Below, piece after piece: positions 6,025-47,856 of a DNA stretch of 53,490 nt. This stretch comes from Gammaproteobacteria bacterium. Lineage in GTDB: Bacteria > Pseudomonadota > Gammaproteobacteria > SZUA-229. Below the pieces are notes generated by a model. That model was not told the DNA's origin. It did not search any database and worked only from the letters and a program-made list of their open reading frames with translations. The position numbers were made by a program, and so were the translations under genes. The stretch is from NCBI GenBank assembly GCA_011051475.1, contig DRLE01000036.1, positions 1 through 53,490 on the forward strand, given 5' to 3'. Numbering within the stretch: position 1 is the stretch's first letter; each line of letters begins with the position of its first letter.

Positions 6025-6062
6025 AAAAGCCTTCGTCATTATAAAATGACGAAGGCTTTTTA
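6025..6062. terminator. Bidirectional intrinsic terminator between the convergent MCO operon and the response-regulator gene
   Basis: aaaagccttcgtcatt-ataa-aatgacgaaggctttt: a perfect 16-bp stem flanked by A and T runs. Confidence 0.8.
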
Positions 6063-6112
6063 TTGTCTGTATGGTCCTGTTCAGGCCTGTTCTTGTGAAA
6101 CGATGCTTTCAG

Positions 6113-6721
6113 CTATTGATCTTTCAGGCTCAGCACCATCTGCACCAGTTCGGGTAGTGATTTTGTGTTCATTTTTTCCATGACCCGGGCACGGTGCACT
6201 TCAACCGTTTTTACACTGATGCCACATTGTTCGGCTATTTTCCGGTTGGGGTTGCCTGAAACCATCAGTTCCATGATTTCCTTTTCGCGGGGGGTCAGGC
6301 TCTCAATACAGGTGATGACCGATGCAGAGGCCGAATCTTTTTCCCGGTTCCTTGCATCTGTCTCCACGGCTTCCTGGATATTGTCCAGCAGCTCCTGGTC
6401 ACGGAACGGTTTTTCCAGAAAGACCTGGGCGCCCTGCTGCATGGCTTTTACCGCCATCGGTACATCACCATGGCCGCTGATAATAATGACGGGTAAGTTG
6501 ATATTATCTGCACGCATTTTCTGCTGCAGTTGCAGACCGCTCATGCCGGGCAGGCGTACATCCAGTATCAGGCAGCCGGGCGTGTCGGGATCGTAGGCAT
6601 CAAGAAAATCCTGTGCCGATGCATAGGTTCTGACGGGGTAACCAACGGTTTCTATCAGCCAGCTTAACGAGTCTCTTATTGCGGGATCGTCATCAACAAT
6701 AAAAATAGTCGGTTCTGCCAT
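6113..6721 (-). CDS. FixJ/NarL-family response regulator (REC + LuxR-type HTH)
   Basis: MAEPTIFIVDDDPAIRDSL...LILDVRLPGMSG...EKPF receiver domain. C-terminal LTPREKEIMELMVSGNPNRKIAEQCGISVKTVEVHRARVMEKM is the HTH. ATG 6721 has GAGGAA upstream; the longer ORF to 6877 overlaps the kinase gene. Confidence 0.9.
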   Translation of the reverse strand: MAEPTIFIVDDDPAIRDSLSWLIETVGYPVRTYASAQDFLDAYDPDTPGCLILDVRLPGMSGLQLQQKMRADNINLPVIIISGHGDVPMAVKAMQQGAQVFLEKPFRDQELLDNIQEAVETDARNREKDSASASVITCIESLTPREKEIMELMVSGNPNRKIAEQCGISVKTVEVHRARVMEKMNTKSLPELVQMVLSLKDQ

Positions 6722-6761
6722 AGTGGGTTTCCTCGCTGAAGTAACACCTGTGAGGCGTACT

Positions 6762-9065
6762 TCAGCCTGTTTCCTGTCGGTCCGGCGGCGGCCGGTCGTT
6801 ATCGCTACCTGCCAATGGTAGTATAAAGCAGAACTGGGAGCCACCTTCTTCTCTTTCTCTGTACCATAATACGCCATTGTGCTCCTCTATAATCGAGCGG
6901 CAGATAGACAGGCCCATGCCGAGGCCATCGGCCTTGGTCGTAAAATAGGTATCGAATATCCTGTCGACGTTTTCCCGGGAGACGCCTTCACCGGCATCGT
7001 ATACCGAAACGCGGACGTAACCCTTGTCATCGATTTCACTTTTAATCAGTAAGCTTCGTTGCTCCTCGGCAATGTCCTGCATGGCATCAAAGGCATTGCG
7101 TATCAGGTTAATCATGACCTGTTCGATTTGCAGTACATCAACGTTTACCACCAGGCTGGAAGGTTCGAGTTCAAGCTCCGGCCGCGGGCTGATATTCTGC
7201 TGGCTGATCAGAACCAGGTCAACGGATTTGCGTATAATGTTATTGAGGTCGGCCTGTTCAAGATGGAATGTTTCACGGTGCGCGAAGCTGCGCATTTTTC
7301 GGATGATTTCGCTGGCGCGTTCCACCTGTTCTATTGATGAGTTAACGGCCTTGATAATGTCCTTGCAGGTGTCGGCCTCGGGGTCGCAACGACGCAGGCT
7401 GGCCTGCAGGTAGAGCGACATGGCCGCCAGCGGCTGGTTCAGTTCATGGGCGATACCCGCCGCCATCTCACCCATAATGCTGAGACGGCCGGCATGCGCC
7501 ATTTCGGCGATGTGTTCCTGCCTTTCTTTCTCCCTTGCCAGACGCTCGCTGATGTCGACCACCAGAGCCGTGTAAAGAGTGCTGCCATCGATAAGCGTTT
7601 TGCTGATTTTTATGGATACCGGTACCCGCCTGGCGGATTTCGTCAGTATATCGATTTCGAAGGCCCTTGCCGATTCGCCATTGCTCTTGCTGTCATCGCT
7701 GACAAGCTGGCCGGTAAGCAGCAGGCGGTAGTTTTCAAGATTTTCCTCCGGGATCAGTATGCGCACACTTTTACCCAGAACTTCTTCTGCCCGGTAACCG
7801 AACAGCTGCTCGGCGGCGGCATTGAAGGTTTCAATATTTCCCTGACTGTCTATGGTAATAATGGCCTCGGCGGCATTGTCCAGGATATTGACAAGGCGCT
7901 GCTGCCTGGACTGTACCTGTCTTCGCATTTTATCGAATGCCTCGGTCAGCTGGCGTATCTCCTGGGCACTGCTACGGGTTTTGATGCTGGCTTTCCTGCC
8001 GCCGGCCTCGTCCTCAAGCGCCTGAGCAACCTGGCTGATGGGCATGAGAATGGTACGGGAGAAAATAATATAGCCTAGCAGAATAAGCAGAGAGCCGACC
8101 GCGAACAGGAACCACAGCGAATCGGAAAGCTGTCGTGCCAGAGAGGTAAGTTGCATCATGGAGGCGGTACGAATATCCTCGATTTTTATGTGCAGCTGGT
8201 TGAAAGAACTGTCCAGGTGTTCAAAAGCGGGGCGGATCTTTTCACCCAGAAGCACAATGTCCTGGCGCCAGTCGGGTGCGTTCAGCATGCTGATGGCATA
8301 GCGGTAGTACTGCACGGCATCTTCAATCTGCCTGTTAAGGCTGGCTATGTCGGCTTCAATTTCCAGTGAAAGCCTGTCCCTGTCTTTCTCCTGTTTCAGT
8401 TCTTCCAGAAGCTGATCAAGCCTGCTGAAATACATTTTGATGTTGTTAACTCGGTCTCTGAAGGCTGCGGTCCAGTCACCGGTAAAGATACCAAAGCGCA
8501 CGGAAACAAGCAGGCGGAATTCCGCCATCATGCGTACCCAGGTGTAGCGAATATCGGACAGCCGGGTTCTTGTTTCGTAGGGCAGGTCTTCCCTGCTCGC
8601 AGACAGCAGAATATTGTTGATCAGGGACAGGATTTCAATATTGTCCGTGTTAAGCGCGAGCATAATGGTCGTAAAGGGAAAGGTTTTTTCTGCATCCAGG
8701 CGTACCTTCACGGCCTGGTCCAGCTCTGTGCGGCATTGTTCAATGTTTTTACCCAGTTGATCCAGTTGTTCCAGAAAACCGTGATCGATATTGCCGTGGT
8801 TTATTCTGTTGAACTGTTCGAATGTCCGGATCAGATTGTCGAGCGAATCGAGATAGGCCTGGTGGTGCTTTTTATCGGGTTCGATCATGAATTCCATGGT
8901 GGTGAACTTGACGTTCTGGTACCGGGTGTTGAATTCATGGAAAACGTTTTCTATATCACGCAGAACCTCCATGTCATGATGGTGCTCATGGACCCCCCGC
9001 TGCACGCTGTACCAGCCGAAAACAGTAATTATGGCCAGCAGGATAAACAGCATCAGTGCGACCAT
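6762..9065 (-). CDS. Membrane sensor histidine kinase: 2 TM helices, a roughly 300-aa helical periplasmic domain, HAMP, PAS, HisKA and HATPase (FixL/DctB-like transmitter)
   Basis: TM1 MVALMLFILLAIITVFGWY and TM2 LWFLFAVGSLLILLGYIIF. PAS LVNILDNAAEAIITIDSQGNIETFN. H-box MAAGIAHELNQPL. N/G boxes NLIRNAFDAM, DAGEGV, GLGMGLSICRSI. Start is set at ATG 9065 just before TM1. The ORF extension to 9233 runs into terminator hairpins. Confidence 0.85.
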   Translation of the reverse strand: MVALMLFILLAIITVFGWYSVQRGVHEHHHDMEVLRDIENVFHEFNTRYQNVKFTTMEFMIEPDKKHHQAYLDSLDNLIRTFEQFNRINHGNIDHGFLEQLDQLGKNIEQCRTELDQAVKVRLDAEKTFPFTTIMLALNTDNIEILSLINNILLSASREDLPYETRTRLSDIRYTWVRMMAEFRLLVSVRFGIFTGDWTAAFRDRVNNIKMYFSRLDQLLEELKQEKDRDRLSLEIEADIASLNRQIEDAVQYYRYAISMLNAPDWRQDIVLLGEKIRPAFEHLDSSFNQLHIKIEDIRTASMMQLTSLARQLSDSLWFLFAVGSLLILLGYIIFSRTILMPISQVAQALEDEAGGRKASIKTRSSAQEIRQLTEAFDKMRRQVQSRQQRLVNILDNAAEAIITIDSQGNIETFNAAAEQLFGYRAEEVLGKSVRILIPEENLENYRLLLTGQLVSDDSKSNGESARAFEIDILTKSARRVPVSIKISKTLIDGSTLYTALVVDISERLAREKERQEHIAEMAHAGRLSIMGEMAAGIAHELNQPLAAMSLYLQASLRRCDPEADTCKDIIKAVNSSIEQVERASEIIRKMRSFAHRETFHLEQADLNNIIRKSVDLVLISQQNISPRPELELEPSSLVVNVDVLQIEQVMINLIRNAFDAMQDIAEEQRSLLIKSEIDDKGYVRVSVYDAGEGVSRENVDRIFDTYFTTKADGLGMGLSICRSIIEEHNGVLWYREREEGGSQFCFILPLAGSDNDRPPPDRQETG

Positions 9066-41105: not shown

Positions 41106-41615
41106 TTAAAGACGCTTAATAATAGCCTGTATTACGTCATGAATCGAGTTGTTTACATTCTCGATAATATGGTCGGCGGTTTCTTCGTACAGGGGGCCGC
41201 GCTGATCGAGCAGGCGCTGCAGGATGGTTTCGGCAGGTTCGTCCGCGTGCAGCAGGGGGCGGTTTTTGTCGCGGCTGGTGCGCTCGACCAGGGTACCAAG
41301 ATCGCTTTTCAGATAGAAAACCGTGCCGCGGTTTTTCAGATGCGCCCGGTTTTCCGGGTCGAGTATGGCGCCGCCACCGGTGGCGAGAATAATGTTCTGC
41401 CGGCCGGTCAGTTCGTCGATAATGGCTTTTTCACGCCTGCGGAAACCTTCTTCGCCTTCTTTCTCGAAGATAAGCGGTATATCCGCACCGGTGCGCTCCT
41501 CGATGACCCGGTCACTGTCGTAAAAATCCATTTTCAGCCTGCGCGCAAGCTGGCGCCCGACCGTGGTTTTGCCGGTGCCCATAAGGCCGATGAGGAAAAT
41601 ATTGTCTTTGCGCAT
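41106..41615 (-). CDS. aroK: Shikimate kinase
   Basis: Walker A LIGLMGTGKTTVGRQLA, DSD and LATGGGA motifs. Confidence 0.92.
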   Translation of the reverse strand: MRKDNIFLIGLMGTGKTTVGRQLARRLKMDFYDSDRVIEERTGADIPLIFEKEGEEGFRRREKAIIDELTGRQNIILATGGGAILDPENRAHLKNRGTVFYLKSDLGTLVERTSRDKNRPLLHADEPAETILQRLLDQRGPLYEETADHIIENVNNSIHDVIQAIIKRL

Positions 41616-41727
41616 GGAAGCTTTTCAGCGATGCTCCGTTTGAATCCGAGTGCGGCTATGTTAACAGATGGCGCCATGATAATCAGGCAGACGACGCATG
41701 GAGCAGGTGATTTATATAAAGGTGCAT

Positions 41728-41762
41728 AAAAAAACCGGGGCAGCTCAGGTGCCCCGGTTTTT
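41728..41762 (-). terminator. Strong intrinsic terminator after the lipoprotein gene, marking the end of the pilMNOPQ-lipoprotein transcript
   Basis: accggggca-gctcagg-tgccccggt: a 9-bp GC-rich stem, followed on the minus strand by TTTTTTT. Confidence 0.8.
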
Positions 41763-41785: not shown

Positions 41786-42730
41786 TTAGCTGCAATTTAC
41801 AGCTATATTGGTAATGTCTGAATATATGACTCCCTGGCCATCCGTGACAGTGCATGTCAGGCCGGCCGGGTTAGTTTTGACCGTAACATTGTATGAGCTT
41901 CCAAGGGATAAGTCGGGGGGGAATGTGAAGGCACCATCAGTAGAAATGACAAGATCGAACACGCCCGGGCTTTGCAGTACCAGTGTTCCTGTCGTCAGGC
42001 CGCTAACCGATCCGCCAAGTGATGCCTTGTTGGTGGTGAGCAGGATGGTGTTTGCTGCCCAGACTGTAATATTGGACAGAACAGGGCTGCAGTCTGTGCT
42101 ATGTGAACAGTCAGGGCCATTATAATAACCATCGGCATCATCATGCTTTTGATTGGCGCCGGTAAGATCAAGGCCGTTTATGGTATCAATAATGACATCG
42201 CCGCTGGAGTAATCCCCGCTTCTGTCAAGATCGATGTATGGCTCTTCAAGGTCCTCATAGGTATCGCCATCATCATAGCGGTTATTGCCGTTGAAATCCT
42301 GGTAAGTTTCCTGCCCGCCGTGAGAATAGGCAACAATCGTGTTTCTCAGGTCGCTGGGCACATCCTCCGATCGCATTGTGCGCCAGGTAACCTCACATGC
42401 TCCGTCCTTGGTTGTGCAACTTGGATCAATCAGGCCCCATTCGGTTCGAAAATATATCGTGCGCTCACCCGTGACCAGCTGGTTCTTGCTGTCACCGATA
42501 CGTACTGATATTTTTGAGGTTTGTTCGTTAAAACCTTTTTCAATATCGAAAAATGAAACTTCGGTGGGTGAAGCCAGGAGAGTAAAGTTTTTCTGTGAGA
42601 CAGGACTGTTATTGCTGGCTGTGCCTGATGTATTAGGTGTTTCAAACGAACTGTTGTCTTCACTGCAACTGCTGATCAGCAGCAGGCTGCTGAAGAGCAG
42701 TGACGTTAATACTATAAAGCGCTTGTTCAT
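41786..42730 (-). CDS. Uncharacterised outer-membrane-type lipoprotein (Ig-like domain, Asp-rich Ca-binding-like loops, C-terminal beta-sandwich domain) encoded inside the pilQ operon
   Basis: Lipobox LLLISSC with +2 Ser. Big-like segment ISVRIGDSKNQLVTGERTIYFRTEWGLIDPSCTTKDGACEVTW. Asp-rich loops DFNGNNRYDDGDTYED and DLDRSGDYSSGD. C-terminal SGLTTGTLVLQ...YNVTVKTNPAGLTCTV. It starts 30 nt after the pilQ stop and is followed by a terminator. Confidence 0.7.
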   Translation of the reverse strand: MNKRFIVLTSLLFSSLLLISSCSEDNSSFETPNTSGTASNNSPVSQKNFTLLASPTEVSFFDIEKGFNEQTSKISVRIGDSKNQLVTGERTIYFRTEWGLIDPSCTTKDGACEVTWRTMRSEDVPSDLRNTIVAYSHGGQETYQDFNGNNRYDDGDTYEDLEEPYIDLDRSGDYSSGDVIIDTINGLDLTGANQKHDDADGYYNGPDCSHSTDCSPVLSNITVWAANTILLTTNKASLGGSVSGLTTGTLVLQSPGVFDLVISTDGAFTFPPDLSLGSSYNVTVKTNPAGLTCTVTDGQGVIYSDITNIAVNCS

Positions 42731-42760
42731 GTCTGTTTCATCCTTACCTGTAAAAGGTAA

Positions 42761-45016
42761 CTATAGGGATAAAGAATCTTTCAGGATTTTAGGGGTAACA
42801 AATATCAGTAGTTCACGTTTTGCATTGTTCTCCAGTGTATGTCTGAAGAGGTAACCCAGCAGCGGAATGTCGCCCAGGAAAGGAACCTTGTCGACTTCTT
42901 CGCGATTGACCTGTTGATAAATACCACCCAGTACAACGGTATCACCATTGTTGACCAGGACCTGGGTATTGACTTCACGGGTATCGATGCTGGGTACACC
43001 GGCAAAGATGTCACCAACGGTATCATTATTAACCGACAGATCCATGATCACGCGGTCATCCGGTGTAATCTGCGGGGTGACGTCGATACTGAGTACTGCC
43101 TTTTTGAACTGTACCTGGGTTGCGCCACTGGATGATGCGGACAGATAGGGAATTTCAACACCCTGTTCAATACGCGCCTGGTGGCGATCCGCGGTAACCA
43201 CGCGAGGACTGGATATGATCTCACCCTGGTTCTCGGCCTGCAGTGCGGAGATTTCCAGGTCGATCAGGTTGCTGCCGGTCAGTACGGCAAAGGCCAGGCT
43301 GCCGGCGGCACCGACCGTGCCGAGGTTGACATTAAGACGGTCGGTCGCGGTTGCGCCGCTTGGCAGGGTGAACGGTTCAGGTGTACCGTTGTTGGCAATA
43401 TTCTGCAGGCCGCTGTCGGCAATGGCGTCGGCGCCGGCAAAGGTGCCCGTGGTCACGCCAAAGCCGTTGGAATTTGTGGCTGCGCGGGTAACACCGAAGC
43501 GTGAGCCCAGCTCCTTGGTGAATTCATCCGAGGCAATAACAATACGGGATGAAATCATGACCTGGCGAATGGGGATGTCCAGTTTTTTCAGGGTCCGGCG
43601 GATCTCGGAAATCACTTCCTCCGTGTCTTTCACGATAATGCTGTTGGTGCGCTCGTCGATAATCAGGCTGCCGCGGGAGCTGAGCATGCCGGTATTGCCA
43701 TTGCTGACGGCTCCGCCTTCACCCTCTTCCAGGTCACCGCCACCAGTACCGCCTTCACCGGTAAAGATGGCGGCCAGTTCGGCAGCCTTGGCGAAGTTAA
43801 TGGTGAAGTATGCGGTGCGGATCGGAGCCAGATCGGTAATGGACTGCTGTGCTTCCAGATCGATTTTCTCCTGGGCGGCAATTTCTTCACTGGGCGCGAT
43901 CATCATCACCGTGCCGGACTGACGCTTGGACAGGCCCTTGGCCTTGAGGATAATATCCAGCGCCTGGTCCCAGGGTACATTTTTCAGGCGCAGGGTCAGG
44001 TTGCCGTCAACCGAATCGCTGACAACGACGTTCAGGCTGGTAAAGTCGGCGATCAACTGCAGCACCGCACGTACCGGGATGTCCTGGAAGTTGAGTGACA
44101 GGCGTTCACCGGTGTAGCCGAACTTTTCTTTATTGACTTCTTCCAGCTCTTCCTTGCTGATGGGCTTCAGCTCGACGGTGAACAGGTCATTGGCCTGGTA
44201 GGCAACATGTTCGAAATTGCTGTTGATTGGCTCGATCTCGATGCGGACATTACCTTCTTCTTCAAAGCTGCTGATGGATTTTACCGGGGTGGCAAAGTCG
44301 AGTACGTCCAGCGTCTGGCGCAGTTTGTCTGGCAGGTCGGCGCCCAGGAATCTGACAACCACCTTGCCGAATTCTTCGCTGATATCCATGGGTATATTCG
44401 GGTCAGTCAGCTTGATGACGACACGGCCTTCACCTTCCTCACCACGTCTGAAGTCAATATTCTCAATGCCGCGTGGTACGTCACTAAAACGTGGTGCGCC
44501 GGCCGGTACGGAAACGGATGAGGGAGCTGTTGCGTCGAAGGCAGCGCCGGTTGCTTCACTGTCGAGTGTAATCAGTACATTGTTTCCCTGTGTGCTTACC
44601 TGGTAGGGTACAACTTCGGAGAGATTCAGGATAACGCGGGTTTTTGTTTTGGTCGAAATGGTTGTTATCGACTGAGCGACACCGATGCCGATGGGCTGGG
44701 AGCGTTTCGGCAGGGTGCTGCCGGTATTGGCAAAGTCAAAGGCAATACGAGCAGGATTGTCTATCGTAAAGCTCATCGGTGTTACGGCCTGCTGGCTTAA
44801 ATGAAGGCTTATCTGCAGGCGGCTTCCCGGCAGTGTAGAGTACTCGATGCCCTGAATGACATTGGAGGCGCCCTCGACAGCCGGTGCCTCGGCCCTGGCG
44901 AACGCATAGCTGTTTAACAGGCAGAACAGGGATAAAACCTGGATAAAGTATCTGGTCAGACAGGGAATTTTCATGCTTTGCCTTTTTGAATGATTGTTTA
45001 TTGTTGTTTTTAACAT
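42761..45016 (-). CDS. pilQ: Type IV pilus secretin PilQ
   Basis: Signal peptide, two AMIN-like N-terminal repeats (RLQISLHL...IAFDF and RVVIKLTD...), and a secretin C-domain with VPFLGDIPLLGYLFR. GGAGAG lies before ATG 45016; ATG 44974 is the alternative. Confidence 0.92.
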   Translation of the reverse strand: MLKTTINNHSKRQSMKIPCLTRYFIQVLSLFCLLNSYAFARAEAPAVEGASNVIQGIEYSTLPGSRLQISLHLSQQAVTPMSFTIDNPARIAFDFANTGSTLPKRSQPIGIGVAQSITTISTKTKTRVILNLSEVVPYQVSTQGNNVLITLDSEATGAAFDATAPSSVSVPAGAPRFSDVPRGIENIDFRRGEEGEGRVVIKLTDPNIPMDISEEFGKVVVRFLGADLPDKLRQTLDVLDFATPVKSISSFEEEGNVRIEIEPINSNFEHVAYQANDLFTVELKPISKEELEEVNKEKFGYTGERLSLNFQDIPVRAVLQLIADFTSLNVVVSDSVDGNLTLRLKNVPWDQALDIILKAKGLSKRQSGTVMMIAPSEEIAAQEKIDLEAQQSITDLAPIRTAYFTINFAKAAELAAIFTGEGGTGGGDLEEGEGGAVSNGNTGMLSSRGSLIIDERTNSIIVKDTEEVISEIRRTLKKLDIPIRQVMISSRIVIASDEFTKELGSRFGVTRAATNSNGFGVTTGTFAGADAIADSGLQNIANNGTPEPFTLPSGATATDRLNVNLGTVGAAGSLAFAVLTGSNLIDLEISALQAENQGEIISSPRVVTADRHQARIEQGVEIPYLSASSSGATQVQFKKAVLSIDVTPQITPDDRVIMDLSVNNDTVGDIFAGVPSIDTREVNTQVLVNNGDTVVLGGIYQQVNREEVDKVPFLGDIPLLGYLFRHTLENNAKRELLIFVTPKILKDSLSL

Positions 45017-45039
45017 GTTTCTCTCCACGCGCACGCGAT

Positions 45040-45558
45040 TTACTCTCCGCCTATCGCGATTGATGCCTCTCGTTCTATATATCCACCAATGCCATCAGGA
45101 ACGATCTCGACAAGGTCGATTTCGGATTCGGTGATCCTGACGATTCTGCCCTCATTCTGGCCCATGTAATTACCGACCTGGACGCGGTGCACGATGTTCT
45201 GCGGGTCCTTGATCAGGCCCCATAACTGGTCACCCTGTTCCAGGATGCCAACCATGCTGAGTGTGTCCAGCGGGAAAACTTCCAGTGGCTGCCTGGGGCG
45301 GGTCTGGTCGGGGTTGATGCTGCTGGTGACGGTGTCGCTGTCTTCTTCCAGGTCAACGGTGGCGACGAAGGGGTCGCGCAGGTCGCCGGCAGAATAACTG
45401 AAGCTTTCATAGGGCTTGAATTGCGGCAATGGCTTTACGCTGCCCACATGCGATGATTTGGTCTGTGCAATAAAGGTCTGCAGGTCGGATATATCCTGGC
45501 TGCAGGCACTGACACCGAGCAGGCTGACAGCAATAATGGCAGGCTTGAACTTGATCAT
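45040..45558 (-). CDS. pilP: Pilus assembly lipoprotein PilP
   Basis: Lipobox LLGVSAC. About 170 aa with a C-terminal beta domain (LSMVGILEQGDQLWGLIKDP). Located between pilO and pilQ. Confidence 0.8.
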   Translation of the reverse strand: MIKFKPAIIAVSLLGVSACSQDISDLQTFIAQTKSSHVGSVKPLPQFKPYESFSYSAGDLRDPFVATVDLEEDSDTVTSSINPDQTRPRQPLEVFPLDTLSMVGILEQGDQLWGLIKDPQNIVHRVQVGNYMGQNEGRIVRITESEIDLVEIVPDGIGGYIEREASIAIGGE

Positions 45559-46187
45559 TTTCCGGCCTCCTGCTGTGCTTCTTCCGATGACTCATCAAGA
45601 TACTGATAGGTAATAGCTGTCAGCTCCATGGTGAGTTTTACACCGCCCTTGGGGTCGGCCGGTTTGATGGAAATGTCCCTTACGGTAACAATGCGCGGCA
45701 GTGCAGCGACTCCGCTGATAAATTCGGCAAATTCGTGGAAGCGACCGGTCACCTTGAGCTTGATCGGGTACTCGGAATAGAATTCCCTGGGCTGCAGGCC
45801 TTCCGGCTTGAAATATTCGATTTCCAGGCCGGCTGATATACCGGTCTGGGAAATATCCGTCAGCAGGGTTTCAATTTCGGTTTCATTCGGCAGCTGCCGA
45901 AGCAGTGTGCCGAACGAGGTCCGCATTTCTTCAAGCTGCTGTTTGTAGGCCTCGAGGTTGGCGGCCTTGGCCTGCTTGGCGCTGAATATGGTGCGCAGGG
46001 TCTGCTCTTCAGCCTGCATTTTTTCAAGTTCGGCTTTCTGCTTTGTTGTATCCAGGAAGTAACCGGCAACAGCCAGCGCGATACATAAAACGACAATAAT
46101 CGCAACTTTTACAGGCAGTGGCGCGCTGCCGATCTTCTTCAGATCGTCAATATCCAGGTCTTCTAGTCTGAGTTCGGAGAGATCCAT
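45555..46187 (-). CDS. pilO: Pilus assembly protein PilO
   Basis: Single TM helix, a coiled coil and the C-terminal EFYSEYPIKLKVTGRFHEFAEFISGVAALPRIVTV. 4-nt overlap with pilP. Confidence 0.85.
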   Translation of the reverse strand: MDLSELRLEDLDIDDLKKIGSAPLPVKVAIIVVLCIALAVAGYFLDTTKQKAELEKMQAEEQTLRTIFSAKQAKAANLEAYKQQLEEMRTSFGTLLRQLPNETEIETLLTDISQTGISAGLEIEYFKPEGLQPREFYSEYPIKLKVTGRFHEFAEFISGVAALPRIVTVRDISIKPADPKGGVKLTMELTAITYQYLDESSEEAQQEAGK

Positions 46188-46761
46188 TATTTGTCATCTC
46201 CTTCGTTGTTGTCTTTGTTCTTATCGGGGGAAGACTGTGAAGTTATCAGTGTGAAGTCGCTGCTTCGTAGCGTGCCCTTGCGTGTTTCAATAACCTTGAG
46301 CTTGGGTGTGGACATCCATTCAGATGCGTCAATATTGCGCATATAGGCGGATACGCGGCCGTTTGATTCGGCCACACCCTTTATTATGAGTTCGTTGCCA
46401 TTCTGGGTGATTTCGGTCAGATAAATGCCTTCCGGTACGGTACGTACAAAATCATCAAACAGGTGAACGATCTGTGGCCGCTGTTGCTGTAATGACTGAA
46501 TAACCTCCATACGGGCAAGCAGTTGTGCCTTGGTTTCTTCCAGTCCCTTGATCTGTTCAAGTGCGGCATCCAGGCGGCTGATTTCGTCCTGTAGCAGCTT
46601 GTTACGGTATTTCTGGTGCTGGATCTGGTTGTCCAGAGTCATGTGCACGAGGAAAACCAGTGCGCCGGTCAGCAGCAGTGACAGGATTGTAATAGTGATA
46701 AACTGCCGGGTCTGTTCCTGTCTCTGTTCTTCGCGCCAGGGTAGTAAGTTAATATGCGCCA

Positions 46762-46762
<1 letters not shown>
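46187..46762 (-). CDS. pilN: Pilus assembly protein PilN
   Basis: MAHINLLPWREEQR N-terminal PilM-binding motif followed by a single TM helix. Confidence 0.85.

Positions 46763-47856
<1,094 letters not shown>

What the first reader, a model, noticed from the sequence alone, without database searches (positions are those of the whole stretch)
41786..42730. Low-GC lipoprotein gene inserted into the conserved pilMNOPQ / aroK-aroB junction and co-transcribed with the secretin
pilQ is normally followed directly by aroK. Here a 314-aa lipoprotein gene starts 30 nt after pilQ, and a strong terminator (41728-41762) follows it. It therefore belongs to the pilus operon rather than to aroK. Two 60-nt lines I counted inside it have 24 and 28 G+C, against 41 in a line of aroB, which suggests acquisition. 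The product has an outer-membrane-type lipobox (+2 Ser), an Ig-like domain, Asp-rich Ca-binding-like loops (DFNGNNRYDDGD, DLDRSGDYSSGD) and a C-terminal beta-sandwich repeat seen in many uncharacterised lipoproteins. Candidate roles are a secretin-associated or pilotin-like factor, a surface adhesin displayed near the pilus pore, or a shield against pilus-dependent phage.
Basis: partly seen in the sequence, partly recalled or inferred. Interest (0 to 1): 0.6.

Follow-up and report, generated by a model that had tools for sequence, protein, structure and literature searches.

The report
Hypervariable calcium-loop lipoprotein gene behind pilQ
The extra gene after the pilus pore gene pilQ is real and encodes a small lipid-anchored protein with an antibody-like fold and calcium-binding loops; it is the shortest form of an undescribed, fast-changing protein family that often follows pilQ in environmental bacteria, and it is more likely a surface binding protein than a pilus assembly helper.

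Summary
A 314-aa lipoprotein gene (41786-42730, minus strand) starts 30 nt after pilQ, and a strong terminator follows it before aroK. It is not a recent foreign insertion. The same slot is filled in 62 of 97 genomes (17 of 19 genera) of the window's order. In at least 9 other gammaproteobacterial families, 550-850-aa Big_1 (invasin-type) lipoproteins with the same core module also sit directly after pilQ.

The protein has a lipobox, a tether with a conserved S-x-F-E-T-P motif, and an invasin-like Ig domain. That domain carries an 80-residue insertion with two EF-hand-like loops and no solved-structure match. A C-terminal beta-sandwich repeat follows, common in giant surface proteins.

The slot is hypervariable: empty, 240, 314, 410 or 900-1978 aa in close relatives. 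Sister genomes with 93-95% identical PilQ have only 41-52% identical copies. A canonical PilW/PilF pilotin is encoded elsewhere, so a pilotin role is unlikely.

The best reading is a surface binding protein made together with the secretin; InvL of Acinetobacter is the closest studied analogue. This scan had already flagged the larger family on other DNA.

The parts
42761..45034 (-). pilQ, the type IVa pilus secretin. The true start is probably the ATG a few codons inside the GTG-started ORF.
   Evidence: Pfam AMIN x2, STN, Secretin_N and Secretin 1.2e-51. 64-88% identical to PilQ of syntenic loci.
42731..42760 (-). 30-nt pilQ-to-lipoprotein spacer with an AAGGA ribosome-binding site and no terminator.
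   Evidence: Sequence. No hairpin plus T-run here or in three orthologous spacers. The gap is 30-41 nt in most loci where both starts are well called.
41786..42730 (-). 314-aa lipoprotein gene, the last gene of the pil operon (stop codon at 41786-41788).
   Evidence: dN/dS 0.07-0.18. Same slot in more than 25 loci.
42665..42730 (-). Signal peptide and lipobox (MNKR, a hydrophobic core, then I-S-S-C22). Ser at +2 predicts outer-membrane sorting under the E. coli rule.
   Evidence: Cys22 is invariant in alignment A1.
42599..42664 (-). Tether, residues 23-44, with the conserved S-S-F-E-T-P motif (residues 27-32, nt 42635-42652).
   Evidence: S-x-F-E-T-P occurs in 71 of 96 family members. A Phe-centred motif also occurs in 47 of 99 members of the larger family, where Phe is about 8-fold enriched near the lipid Cys.
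42035..42598 (-). Core module, residues 45-232. It is an invasin/intimin-type Ig beta-sandwich with an ~80-residue loop-rich insertion (141-220) before the last strand. Invariant pairs C105/C112 and C208/C214 are probably disulfides. H196, D200 and H210 are conserved.
   Evidence: AF2 core model: pLDDT 96, pTM 0.90. Foldseek matches only the Ig half: InvE, intimin D0-D1, invasin 1cwv and GH2 Ig domains. Conservation.
42263..42298 (-). EF-hand-like (DxDxDG-type) loop 1, D145-F-N-G-N-N-R-Y-D-D-G-D156.
   Evidence: Family consensus D(1.00)-x-N(.90)-G-N(.94)-G(.77)-x-F(.90)-D(.86)-D-G-D(.92). Calcium binding is inferred, not shown.
42197..42232 (-). EF-hand-like loop 2, D167-L-D-R-S-G-D-Y-S-S-G-D178. 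It starts 22 residues after loop 1.
   Evidence: Consensus [DN]-x-[DN]-x-[SND]-G-x-[FY]-[DTN]-x-G(.99)-[DE].
41789..42034 (-). C-terminal ~80-aa beta-sandwich module, residues 233-314, with a conserved Cys pair (C292/C313). It is optional in the family, present in 0, 1, 2 or about 7 copies.
   Evidence: pLDDT above 90. 9570 hits, mostly tandem repeats in giant proteins. Weak DUF4369-like signal, and found with PKD, Big_13, InlB-B and LTD modules. It is the fastest-evolving part.
41723..41762 (-). Intrinsic terminator that ends the pil transcription unit (hairpin 41730-41762 plus a T-run).
   Evidence: z = -5.1. Equivalent hairpin plus T-run 45-57 nt after the stop codon in most orthologues that have one (92 nt in L058).
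41106..41615 (-). aroK (shikimate kinase), the first gene of the next unit (aroK-aroB-dgt-dnaG).
   Evidence: Pfam SKI 1.4e-53. Synteny.
45040..47823 (-). pilP, pilO, pilN and pilM, the upstream genes of the same operon.
   Evidence: ORFs. The syntenic genes in relatives carry PF04351, PF04350, PF05137 and PF11104. BLASTP to these.

Best explanation
The gene is the sixth and last gene of the pilMNOPQ operon. It encodes the minimal form of an undescribed family of invasin-like (Big_1-type Ig) lipoproteins that are often encoded directly behind the type IVa pilus secretin gene in Gammaproteobacteria.

Inferred pathway: the gene is transcribed with pilQ. The product is exported by Sec, lipidated at Cys22 and sent to the outer membrane (Ser at +2). 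It folds with two or three short-range disulfides. Two EF-hand-like loops bind calcium and stiffen an 80-residue loop subdomain that sits on an Ig scaffold. An 80-aa beta-sandwich module of a very common surface-protein repeat family follows.

The protein most likely faces the outside of the cell and acts as a calcium-dependent binding or adhesion module made together with the pilus pore. External selection keeps it diverse. The slot between pilQ and aroK behaves as a hypervariable cassette site where alleles are lost, expanded or replaced by recombination through the conserved flanks.

Shown: gene reality, operon anatomy, homology, fold, conservation, linkage to pilQ and hypervariability. Inferred: co-transcription, lipidation and sorting, calcium binding, surface exposure and adhesion.
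For: Operon anatomy.

Linkage to pilQ: every locus of the order with enough flank has pilMNOPQ-X-aroK. The gene is present in 62/97 genomes and 17/19 genera. In other families, 10 of 30 module carriers have it immediately downstream of pilQ on the same strand, in 9 families, plus L057 and L058.

Homology to the larger Big_1 lipoproteins: BLASTP 1e-25 and 9e-20. Their Pfam Big_1 and Invasin_D3 hits are above cut-off.

Fold: an Ig domain like invasin and intimin.

Surface-protein behaviour:
- Same-slot alleles of 225-1978 aa, with up to 3 cores and Big_1 stalks.
- Architecture flips between PilQ sister genomes.
- PilQ 93-95% and AroK 92% identical, but X only 41-52% identical.
- Nucleotide identity falls from 80-95% to 42-62% exactly over X and recovers in aroK.
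- dN is 1.5-5 times that of the neighbouring genes, with dN/dS below 0.2.
- The C-terminal module co-occurs with PKD, Big_13, InlB-B and LTD modules in giant proteins.

Analogue: InvL is an invasin-like lipoprotein shown to need a secretin machine (T2SS GspD) for surface exposure, and it acts as an adhesin (PMC9245377).
Against: Calcium binding and disulfides are inferred from motifs only, and the loops fail the strict PROSITE EF-hand pattern at positions 8 and 13 (checked by hand, no tool call).

The 314-aa form has only a ~22-residue tether and no stalk, so a periplasm-facing position under the outer membrane is also possible. No known route to the surface is established here. A Slam-like gene is present in G000 and G027 but absent from three other genomes that carry the gene.

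The module also occurs at loci unrelated to pili: 19 of 30 in other families (including one 4.3 kb from pilQ), a Shewanella relative, and Pseudomonadales MAGs. In one family it sits beside aroK/aroB without pilQ.

High-quality relatives lack the gene yet keep intact pilMNOPQ, so it is not part of the core pilus machine.
Confidence: 0.55

Rival explanations
1. Periplasm-facing secretin accessory. The lipoprotein stays on the inner leaflet of the outer membrane next to PilQ. There it gates, stabilises or anchors the secretin or its AMIN/N domains in a calcium-dependent way, as a non-canonical pilotin-like or channel-interacting factor.
For: Tight operon coupling to pilQ across many families. Short tether with a conserved S-x-F-E-T-P peptide that could be a docking motif. 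Secretin-interacting periplasmic proteins that prevent leakage exist in P. aeruginosa (bioRxiv 10.1101/2021.09.13.460190).
Against: A canonical PilW/PilF is present. Close relatives with 76-78% identical PilQ lack the gene. A partner of the well-conserved PilQ would not be expected to sit at 41-52% identity when PilQ is 93-95% identical. Same-slot alleles of 900-1978 aa with Ig stalks fit poorly in a periplasm. No fold match to any pilotin.
Confidence: 0.15
2. Hitch-hiker. The pilQ/aroK junction is simply a recombination-tolerant slot at the end of an operon. A generic surface or periplasmic Ig-lipoprotein with no functional tie to pili has settled there and is carried along.
For: Presence/absence and pseudogenes among relatives. 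The module is found at unrelated loci in 19 of 30 distant carriers (one of them 4.3 kb from pilQ) and in Shewanella. In family f32 it sits with aroK/aroB without pilQ.
Against: Adjacency to pilQ recurs in at least 10 families with PilQ only 42-57% identical. That is far more than the roughly 1-in-1000 chance of neighbouring any given gene. The gene stays with pilQ when an insertion splits the junction (L058). The terminator consistently lies after it, not before it.
Confidence: 0.2
3. One reading: a recently acquired foreign low-GC gene inserted into a junction that is otherwise intact.
For: GC 48.3% against 54.2% for the window, and GC3 0.51 against 0.57-0.77. Alleles are evidently exchanged horizontally among relatives.
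Against: The same slot is filled in 17 of 19 genera and in other families. The closest relatives (PilQ 87%) carry 72-85% identical copies. The GC3 depression is shared by orthologues in genomes of different GC. No mobile-element features flank the gene.
Confidence: 0.05

Closest known systems
InvL of Acinetobacter baumannii (invasin-like lipoprotein adhesin, T2SS substrate; PMC9245377)
   Same: Lipoprotein signal instead of a beta-barrel anchor. Invasin/intimin-type Ig fold. Its studied behaviour gives a precedent for a secretin-dependent route to the cell surface and for an adhesin role.
   Different: InvL has 492 aa with three Ig domains plus an Ig/lectin-like tip. X has one Ig domain whose tip is a calcium-loop insertion with no solved-structure match, plus a different C-terminal repeat. 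InvL is not reported next to pilQ (no mention in the paper). Sequence homology to InvL was not tested here.
Intimin/invasin family (Pfam Big_1 PF02369, Invasin_D3 PF09134; type Ve secretion)
   Same: The Ig domain of the core superposes on InvE, InvD, invasin and intimin D0-D1 domains. Larger same-slot and same-family proteins score above the Pfam Big_1 and Invasin_D3 cut-offs.
   Different: No beta-barrel translocator, no LysM and no C-type lectin-like tip. X itself gets no Pfam hit. Anchoring is by lipid.
Type IVa pilus pilotins PilF / PilW / Tgl
   Same: An outer-membrane lipoprotein genetically associated with the secretin.
   Different: Pilotins are TPR proteins, whereas X is all-beta Ig plus loops. 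A canonical PilW (TIGR02521, 224 bits) is encoded elsewhere in the same genome. X is dispensable in close relatives and hypervariable.
Calcium-stiffened Ig-like adhesin modules (RTX adhesin extender domains such as MpAFP RII; SdrD B domains)
   Same: A beta-sandwich with acidic calcium loops, a modular repeat architecture and a surface-adhesin context. SdrD_B is a weak Pfam hit in 3 family members.
   Different: Those bind calcium between tandem domains. Here two tandem 12-residue EF-hand-like loops lie in one 80-residue insertion inside a single Ig domain. There is no RTX/T1SS signal.
Post-pilQ Ig-domain lipoproteins flagged earlier by this scan on other genomes
   Same: Same slot (pilQ-X-aroK), lipobox, Big_1 domains and a calcium-loop module. 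I confirmed homology and linkage independently.
   Different: Those are 480-770-aa rods of four to five Ig domains. The window's gene is a stalk-less 314-aa form, in a lineage where the slot varies from empty to 1978 aa.

Membership tests
Post-pilQ invasin-like lipoprotein family (unnamed) | Lipoprotein signal peptide with lipobox | tested here: met
   I-S-S-C22, with Cys invariant. 99-104 of 120 members of the larger family also have a lipobox.
Post-pilQ invasin-like lipoprotein family (unnamed) | Encoded directly downstream of pilQ on the same strand, before aroK | tested here: met
   30-nt gap in the window. Same arrangement in more than 25 loci of the order and in at least 9 other families.
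Post-pilQ invasin-like lipoprotein family (unnamed) | Shared Ig plus calcium-loop core module (sequence homology) | tested here: met
   BLASTP 1e-25 to P0273 (586 aa, post-pilQ) and 9e-20 to P0293 (660 aa, post-pilQ), with both acidic loops aligned.
Post-pilQ invasin-like lipoprotein family (unnamed) | Stalk of several Big_1 Ig domains | tested here: not met
   X has a single Ig domain and no Pfam Big_1 hit. The stalk is present in same-slot giants and in other families. X is a truncated architecture of the family.
Intimin/invasin (type Ve) adhesins | N-terminal beta-barrel translocator and C-terminal lectin-like tip | tested here: not met
   No such domains by Pfam or in the models. Only the Ig fold is shared.
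InvL-type secretin-dependent lipoprotein adhesins | Surface exposure that depends on a secretin machine | not testable with these tools
   Needs localisation in gspD and pilQ mutants. The genomes encode three secretins: PilQ, a GspD-like one and a ~560-aa one.
InvL-type secretin-dependent lipoprotein adhesins | Sequence homology to InvL | not tested
Only the architecture could be compared, from PMC9245377.
T4P pilotins (PilF/PilW/Tgl) | TPR-repeat fold | tested here: not met
   An all-beta model, with no TPR hit by Pfam or Foldseek. A true PilW is found elsewhere in the genome.
T4P pilotins (PilF/PilW/Tgl) | Required for PilQ localisation and multimerisation | not testable with these tools
   Indirect evidence against: relatives keep pilMNOPQ without the gene.
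EF-hand-like / DxDxDG calcium-binding loops | 12-residue loop with oxygen ligands at positions 1, 3, 5, 9 and 12, Gly at 6 and a hydrophobic residue at 8 | tested here: met
   Both loops fit in the family consensus. In the window's loop 1, position 6 is Asn.
EF-hand-like / DxDxDG calcium-binding loops | Actual calcium binding | not testable with these tools
   Needs ITC or DSF with and without calcium, or a structure.

The most novel reading that the evidence does not exclude
The protein is a cargo of its own operon's machine. The type IVa pilus system (the PilQ secretin with the pilus acting as a piston) would export this operon-encoded lipoprotein to the cell surface, as the T2SS does for InvL and PulA. 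The conserved S-x-F-E-T-P peptide next to the lipid anchor would be the recognition or handover signal. The pilMNOPQ-X unit would then be a combined pilus and adhesin-display module. The displayed tip is swapped between strains under pressure from phages, grazers or kin recognition.
Probability: 0.15. Interest if true: 0.8.

Novelty: new variant of a known kind. Interest (0 to 1): 0.55.

Why it matters
Textbook type IVa pilus operons end at pilQ. This work, together with earlier hits of this scan on other genomes, shows that in many environmental Gammaproteobacteria a sixth gene for a lipid-anchored Ig protein with a calcium-loop module is part of the unit.

The lineage studied here is an informative natural experiment. 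The slot ranges from empty through a 240-aa minimal module to nearly 2000 aa, and it is replaced by recombination while PilQ and AroK stay about 93-95% identical. That pattern points to an exposed, selected surface function linked to pili, such as adhesion after pilus retraction, kin or host recognition, or interplay with pilus-specific phages.

The minimal 314-aa form is a tractable target for structure determination, calcium-binding tests and localisation. The 80-residue calcium-loop subdomain has no counterpart among solved structures.

Tried and rejected
- Pfam and NCBIfam on the protein gave no family. The only signals were E of about 0.1 on the signal peptide.
- A profile search of PDB sequences found nothing.
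- PADLOC found nothing, so there is no support for a known defence system.
- Replacement-pilotin idea: rejected because TIGR02521 PilW is present above cut-off in the window's genome and in four other genomes tested (three carry the gene behind pilQ; the fourth, G003, carries only the unlinked 663-aa homologue), and the fold is not TPR.
- Recent horizontal insertion: rejected.
- Slam (PF04575) as the surface-export route: it does not co-occur with the gene.
- Literature: four full-text searches or look-ups found no description of a gene between pilQ and aroK.
- Whole-protein Foldseek gave only generic Ig hits with poor global TM. The viral fold library also gave only generic Ig hits.
- A strict vertical-inheritance model for the gene fits poorly. 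X identity tracks PilQ identity with Spearman 0.32, against 0.73 for AroK.
- A complex prediction with PilQ was not possible, because the structure tool folds single chains only.
Full report
**Observation**

The ORF at 41786..42730 on the minus strand encodes 314 aa. The upstream ORF, 42761..45034, is a type IVa pilus secretin: Pfam AMIN x2, STN, Secretin_N and Secretin at 1.2e-51. The downstream ORF, 41106..41615, is shikimate kinase: SKI at 1.4e-53.

- The pilQ stop and the ATG of the gene are 30 nt apart. The spacer holds an AAGGA ribosome-binding site and no terminator.
- After the stop codon there is a 13-bp GC-rich hairpin (41730-41762) followed by seven T. The region folds at -28.9 kcal/mol, z = -5.1, and none of 200 shuffles folds as well.
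- The product starts MNKR, then a hydrophobic core, then I-S-S-C22, which is a standard lipobox with Ser at +2.
- GC is 48.3% against 54.2% for the window (6th percentile of equal-sized windows). GC3 is 0.51 against 0.57-0.77 in the neighbouring genes. The low-GC remark is correct, but the effect is moderate.
- The frame is a real gene. It has about 160 homologues. Against two close relatives (PilQ 87% identical) dN/dS is 0.07-0.18.

**Domain anatomy**

Pfam, NCBIfam, PADLOC and a PDB sequence-profile search give nothing for the protein.

An AF2 model of the whole protein has pLDDT 79. A model of residues 36-232 built on 99 homologues has pLDDT 96 and pTM 0.90. Together they show four parts:

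1. A disordered tether, residues 23-44.
2. An Ig-type beta-sandwich, about residues 45-140 plus the strand at 221-230.
3. An 80-residue stretch (141-220) without regular secondary structure, inserted before the last strand and confidently packed.
4. A separate C-terminal beta-sandwich, residues 233-314.

Foldseek matches only the Ig half. The hits are Yersinia InvE and InvD, invasin 1cwv, intimin D0-D1 and Ig domains of GH2 enzymes. TM normalised to the query is 0.31-0.37. The insertion has no counterpart among solved structures or in the viral fold library.

The insertion carries two 12-residue loops that start 22 residues apart. In the family consensus they fit the EF-hand/DxDxDG ligand pattern:
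- Loop 1: D-x-N-G-N-G-x-F-D-D-G-D.
- Loop 2: [DN]-x-[DN]-x-[SND]-G-x-[FY]-x-x-G-[DE].

C105/C112 and C208/C214 are invariant short-range pairs. H196, D200 and H210 are (nearly) invariant. Calcium binding and disulfides are therefore inferred, not shown.

The C-terminal module hits 9570 proteins, mostly as tandem repeats of up to about 30 copies in giant proteins. Those proteins also carry PKD, Big_13, InlB-B and LTD modules. The module gives only a weak, summed DUF4369-like signal.

**The slot within the window's lineage**

Every homologous locus with enough flank shows pilM-N-O-P-Q, then the gene, then aroK-aroB-dgt-dnaG. The records come from MAGs that NCBI labels Thiotrichaceae, Thiotrichales or Gammaproteobacteria bacterium.

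In the window's order (97 species-level genomes, one family, 19 genera) the core module is found in 62 genomes. That is 34 of the 44 high-quality genomes and 17 of the 19 genera. This rules out a recent insertion.

The slot is nevertheless very unstable:
- Four high-quality relatives, one of them in the same genus, have pilQ followed directly by aroK.
- Two genomes carry copies broken by stop codons.
- Other relatives carry same-slot lipoprotein genes of 225-260 aa (core only), 312-328 aa (core plus one C-terminal module), about 410 aa (two modules) and 903 aa (about seven modules).
- Three relatives carry genes of 1242, 1456 and 1978 aa, with two or three cores and Big_1/Invasin_D3 domains above the Pfam cut-off.

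On a PilQ tree these architectures alternate between well-supported sister genomes.

The clearest cases are two sister pairs. L005 and L007 share 94.6% identical PilQ and 92.4% identical AroK. Their slot proteins are 242 and 411 aa and only 51.6% identical over the core. L004 and L012 have 93.4% identical PilQ and 41% identical slot proteins. Along the DNA of L005 and L007, identity is 80-95% in the 3' end of pilQ. It falls to 42-62% exactly over the gene and returns to 75-88% in aroK.

Across 136 genome pairs, core identity tracks PilQ identity only weakly (Spearman 0.32, against 0.73 for AroK versus PilQ). The simplest reading is replacement of divergent alleles by recombination through the conserved flanks, together with gain and loss of modules. 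This is the behaviour of exposed, diversifying surface proteins.

The GC3 depression is shared by orthologues in relatives with other base compositions. It is therefore a property of the gene class and not a sign of fresh import.

**Beyond the order**

In a sample of 400 genomes of the class, the core module occurs in 30 genomes of other families, mostly inside ORFs of 470-1240 aa. I compared their coordinates with those of PilQ. In 10 of the 30, from 9 families, the module-bearing ORF lies immediately downstream of pilQ on the same strand. PilQ in those genomes is only 42-57% identical to the window's.

- Three of these were inspected and are 565-586-aa lipoproteins between pilQ and aroK.
- Two further metagenomic loci show pilMNOPQ-660 aa-aroK and pilMNOPQ-550 aa. 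In the second, a molybdopterin oxidoreductase cluster is inserted before aroK, so the gene stays with pilQ when the junction is split.
- The window's protein aligns to these larger proteins at 1e-25 and 9e-20, including both acidic loops.
- They carry Big_1 and Invasin_D3 domains.

The linkage is not obligatory. Nineteen of the 30 are not adjacent to pilQ: one lies 4.3 kb downstream and the rest lie elsewhere or on other contigs. One family has the gene beside aroK/aroB without pilQ. A Shewanella relative and Pseudomonadales MAG relatives sit at unrelated loci.

**Operon membership**

The pilQ-to-gene gap is 30-41 nt in most loci where both starts are well called. No hairpin plus T-run lies in that gap. 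A hairpin plus T-run follows the gene in 9 of 11 loci tested, 45-57 nt after the stop codon in eight of them and 92 nt in L058. Where the gene is absent, a similar terminator follows pilQ in 2 of 4 loci.

The gene therefore lies inside the pil transcription unit as judged from sequence.

**Function**

A pilotin role is unlikely, for three reasons. The fold is not TPR. The genome encodes a canonical PilW/PilF (TIGR02521, 224 bits against a cut-off of 154). Relatives also keep the pil operon without the gene.

A periplasmic partner of the well-conserved PilQ would not be expected to be hypervariable or to grow to nearly 2000 aa. The family's invasin-type Ig stalks, the calcium loops, the repeat module shared with giant extracellular proteins and the cassette-like variation all point to an outward-facing binding protein made together with the secretin.

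The closest studied protein is InvL of Acinetobacter baumannii. It is a 492-aa invasin-like lipoprotein that needs the T2SS secretin machinery for surface exposure and acts as an adhesin (PMC9245377). That gives a precedent for a secretin-dependent route. The genomes here have three secretins: PilQ, a GspD-like one and a ~560-aa one. A Slam-like translocon does not co-occur with the gene.

I put 0.55 on the surface binding-protein reading, 0.15 on a periplasm-facing secretin accessory, 0.20 on a functionally unrelated hitch-hiker and 0.05 on recent acquisition.

**An unexplained detail**

The tether is not a random linker. S-x-F-E-T-P lies about seven residues after the lipid Cys in 71 of 96 family members. 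Even distant 660-aa relatives have C-G-G-G-G-G-D-S-K-F-E-T-P. In the larger family, a Phe lies at +3 to +14 in 47 of 99 members, and Phe is about eight-fold more frequent there than in the next 15 residues. This could be a sorting or docking signal. It is the basis of the most novel reading, that the protein is a cargo handed to the pilus secretin.

**Relation to earlier work of this scan, and novelty**

Notes from other genomes describe Ig-domain lipoproteins between pilQ and aroK, with the same conclusion (not a pilotin, probably a surface factor). They named InvL as the closest known protein.

I reached the linkage and the family independently and read the InvL paper myself. What this window adds:
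- the stalk-less minimal architecture;
- the order-wide census;
- the demonstration that the slot is a divergence island with allelic replacement;
- the tether motif.

I found no description of the family in the literature. I rate it a new variant of a known kind, namely invasin-like lipoprotein adhesins, with moderate interest.

Noticed in passing
window 42635-42652 (residues 27-32): A conserved S-S-F-E-T-P peptide sits just after the lipid-anchor Cys, in an otherwise low-complexity tether. It is also found as D-S-K-F-E-T-P in distant 660-aa relatives. It may be a sorting or docking signal. The preceding E-D-N-S-S also fits the bacterial N-glycosylation sequon D/E-x-N-x-S/T; no oligosaccharyltransferase was looked for.
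   Followed up: partly
L059 (Dolichospermum phage Dfl-JY45, PP438435.1: 33373-36396): A 1007-aa hypothetical protein of a 209-kb cyanophage carries the same Ig plus calcium-loop core module (33% identity over residues 46-214, E 3e-16). It was the only phage hit in 50,697 records.
   Followed up: partly
L022-L026 (Pseudomonadales and other gammaproteobacterial MAGs), ORF about 6040-8140: Distant homologues are 660-700-aa proteins (Big_1, then the core, then fn3). They sit in a conserved neighbourhood of a ComF-like gene (double zinc ribbon plus phosphoribosyltransferase), an acyl-CoA dehydrogenase, a NUDIX gene and an ABC-F ATPase, not near pilQ.
   Followed up: partly
G033:C16:88869-89581 and G080:C1:55832-56517 (same order): Copies of the gene are interrupted by an in-frame TGA or TAA, or by a frame shift. 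L019 and L021 also look fragmentary. This suggests decay in progress in some lineages, or assembly errors.
   Followed up: no
window 42761-45034 (PilQ, about residues 425-450): PilQ has a Gly/Glu-rich low-complexity insertion (GEGGTGGGDLEEGEGGAVSNGNTG) within the N-domain region, inside the span Pfam assigns to Secretin_N (408-491). The GTG-started ORF probably over-extends the true N-terminus, since relatives begin near MLKTT.
   Followed up: no
G000:C87:3994-4491, G000:C23:5370-5912 and G000:C150:2442-3272: Besides PilQ, the genome encodes two more secretins: a GspD-like one, and a ~560-590-aa one that may belong to an MSHA or Tad-type system. It also has a Slam-like (PF04575) outer-membrane protein.
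   Followed up: no
L058 7080-11997 (GCA_030148805.1): A molybdopterin oxidoreductase / NrfD / 4Fe-4S gene cluster is inserted on the opposite strand between the post-pilQ lipoprotein gene and aroK. The junction can therefore accept other cargo.
   Followed up: no
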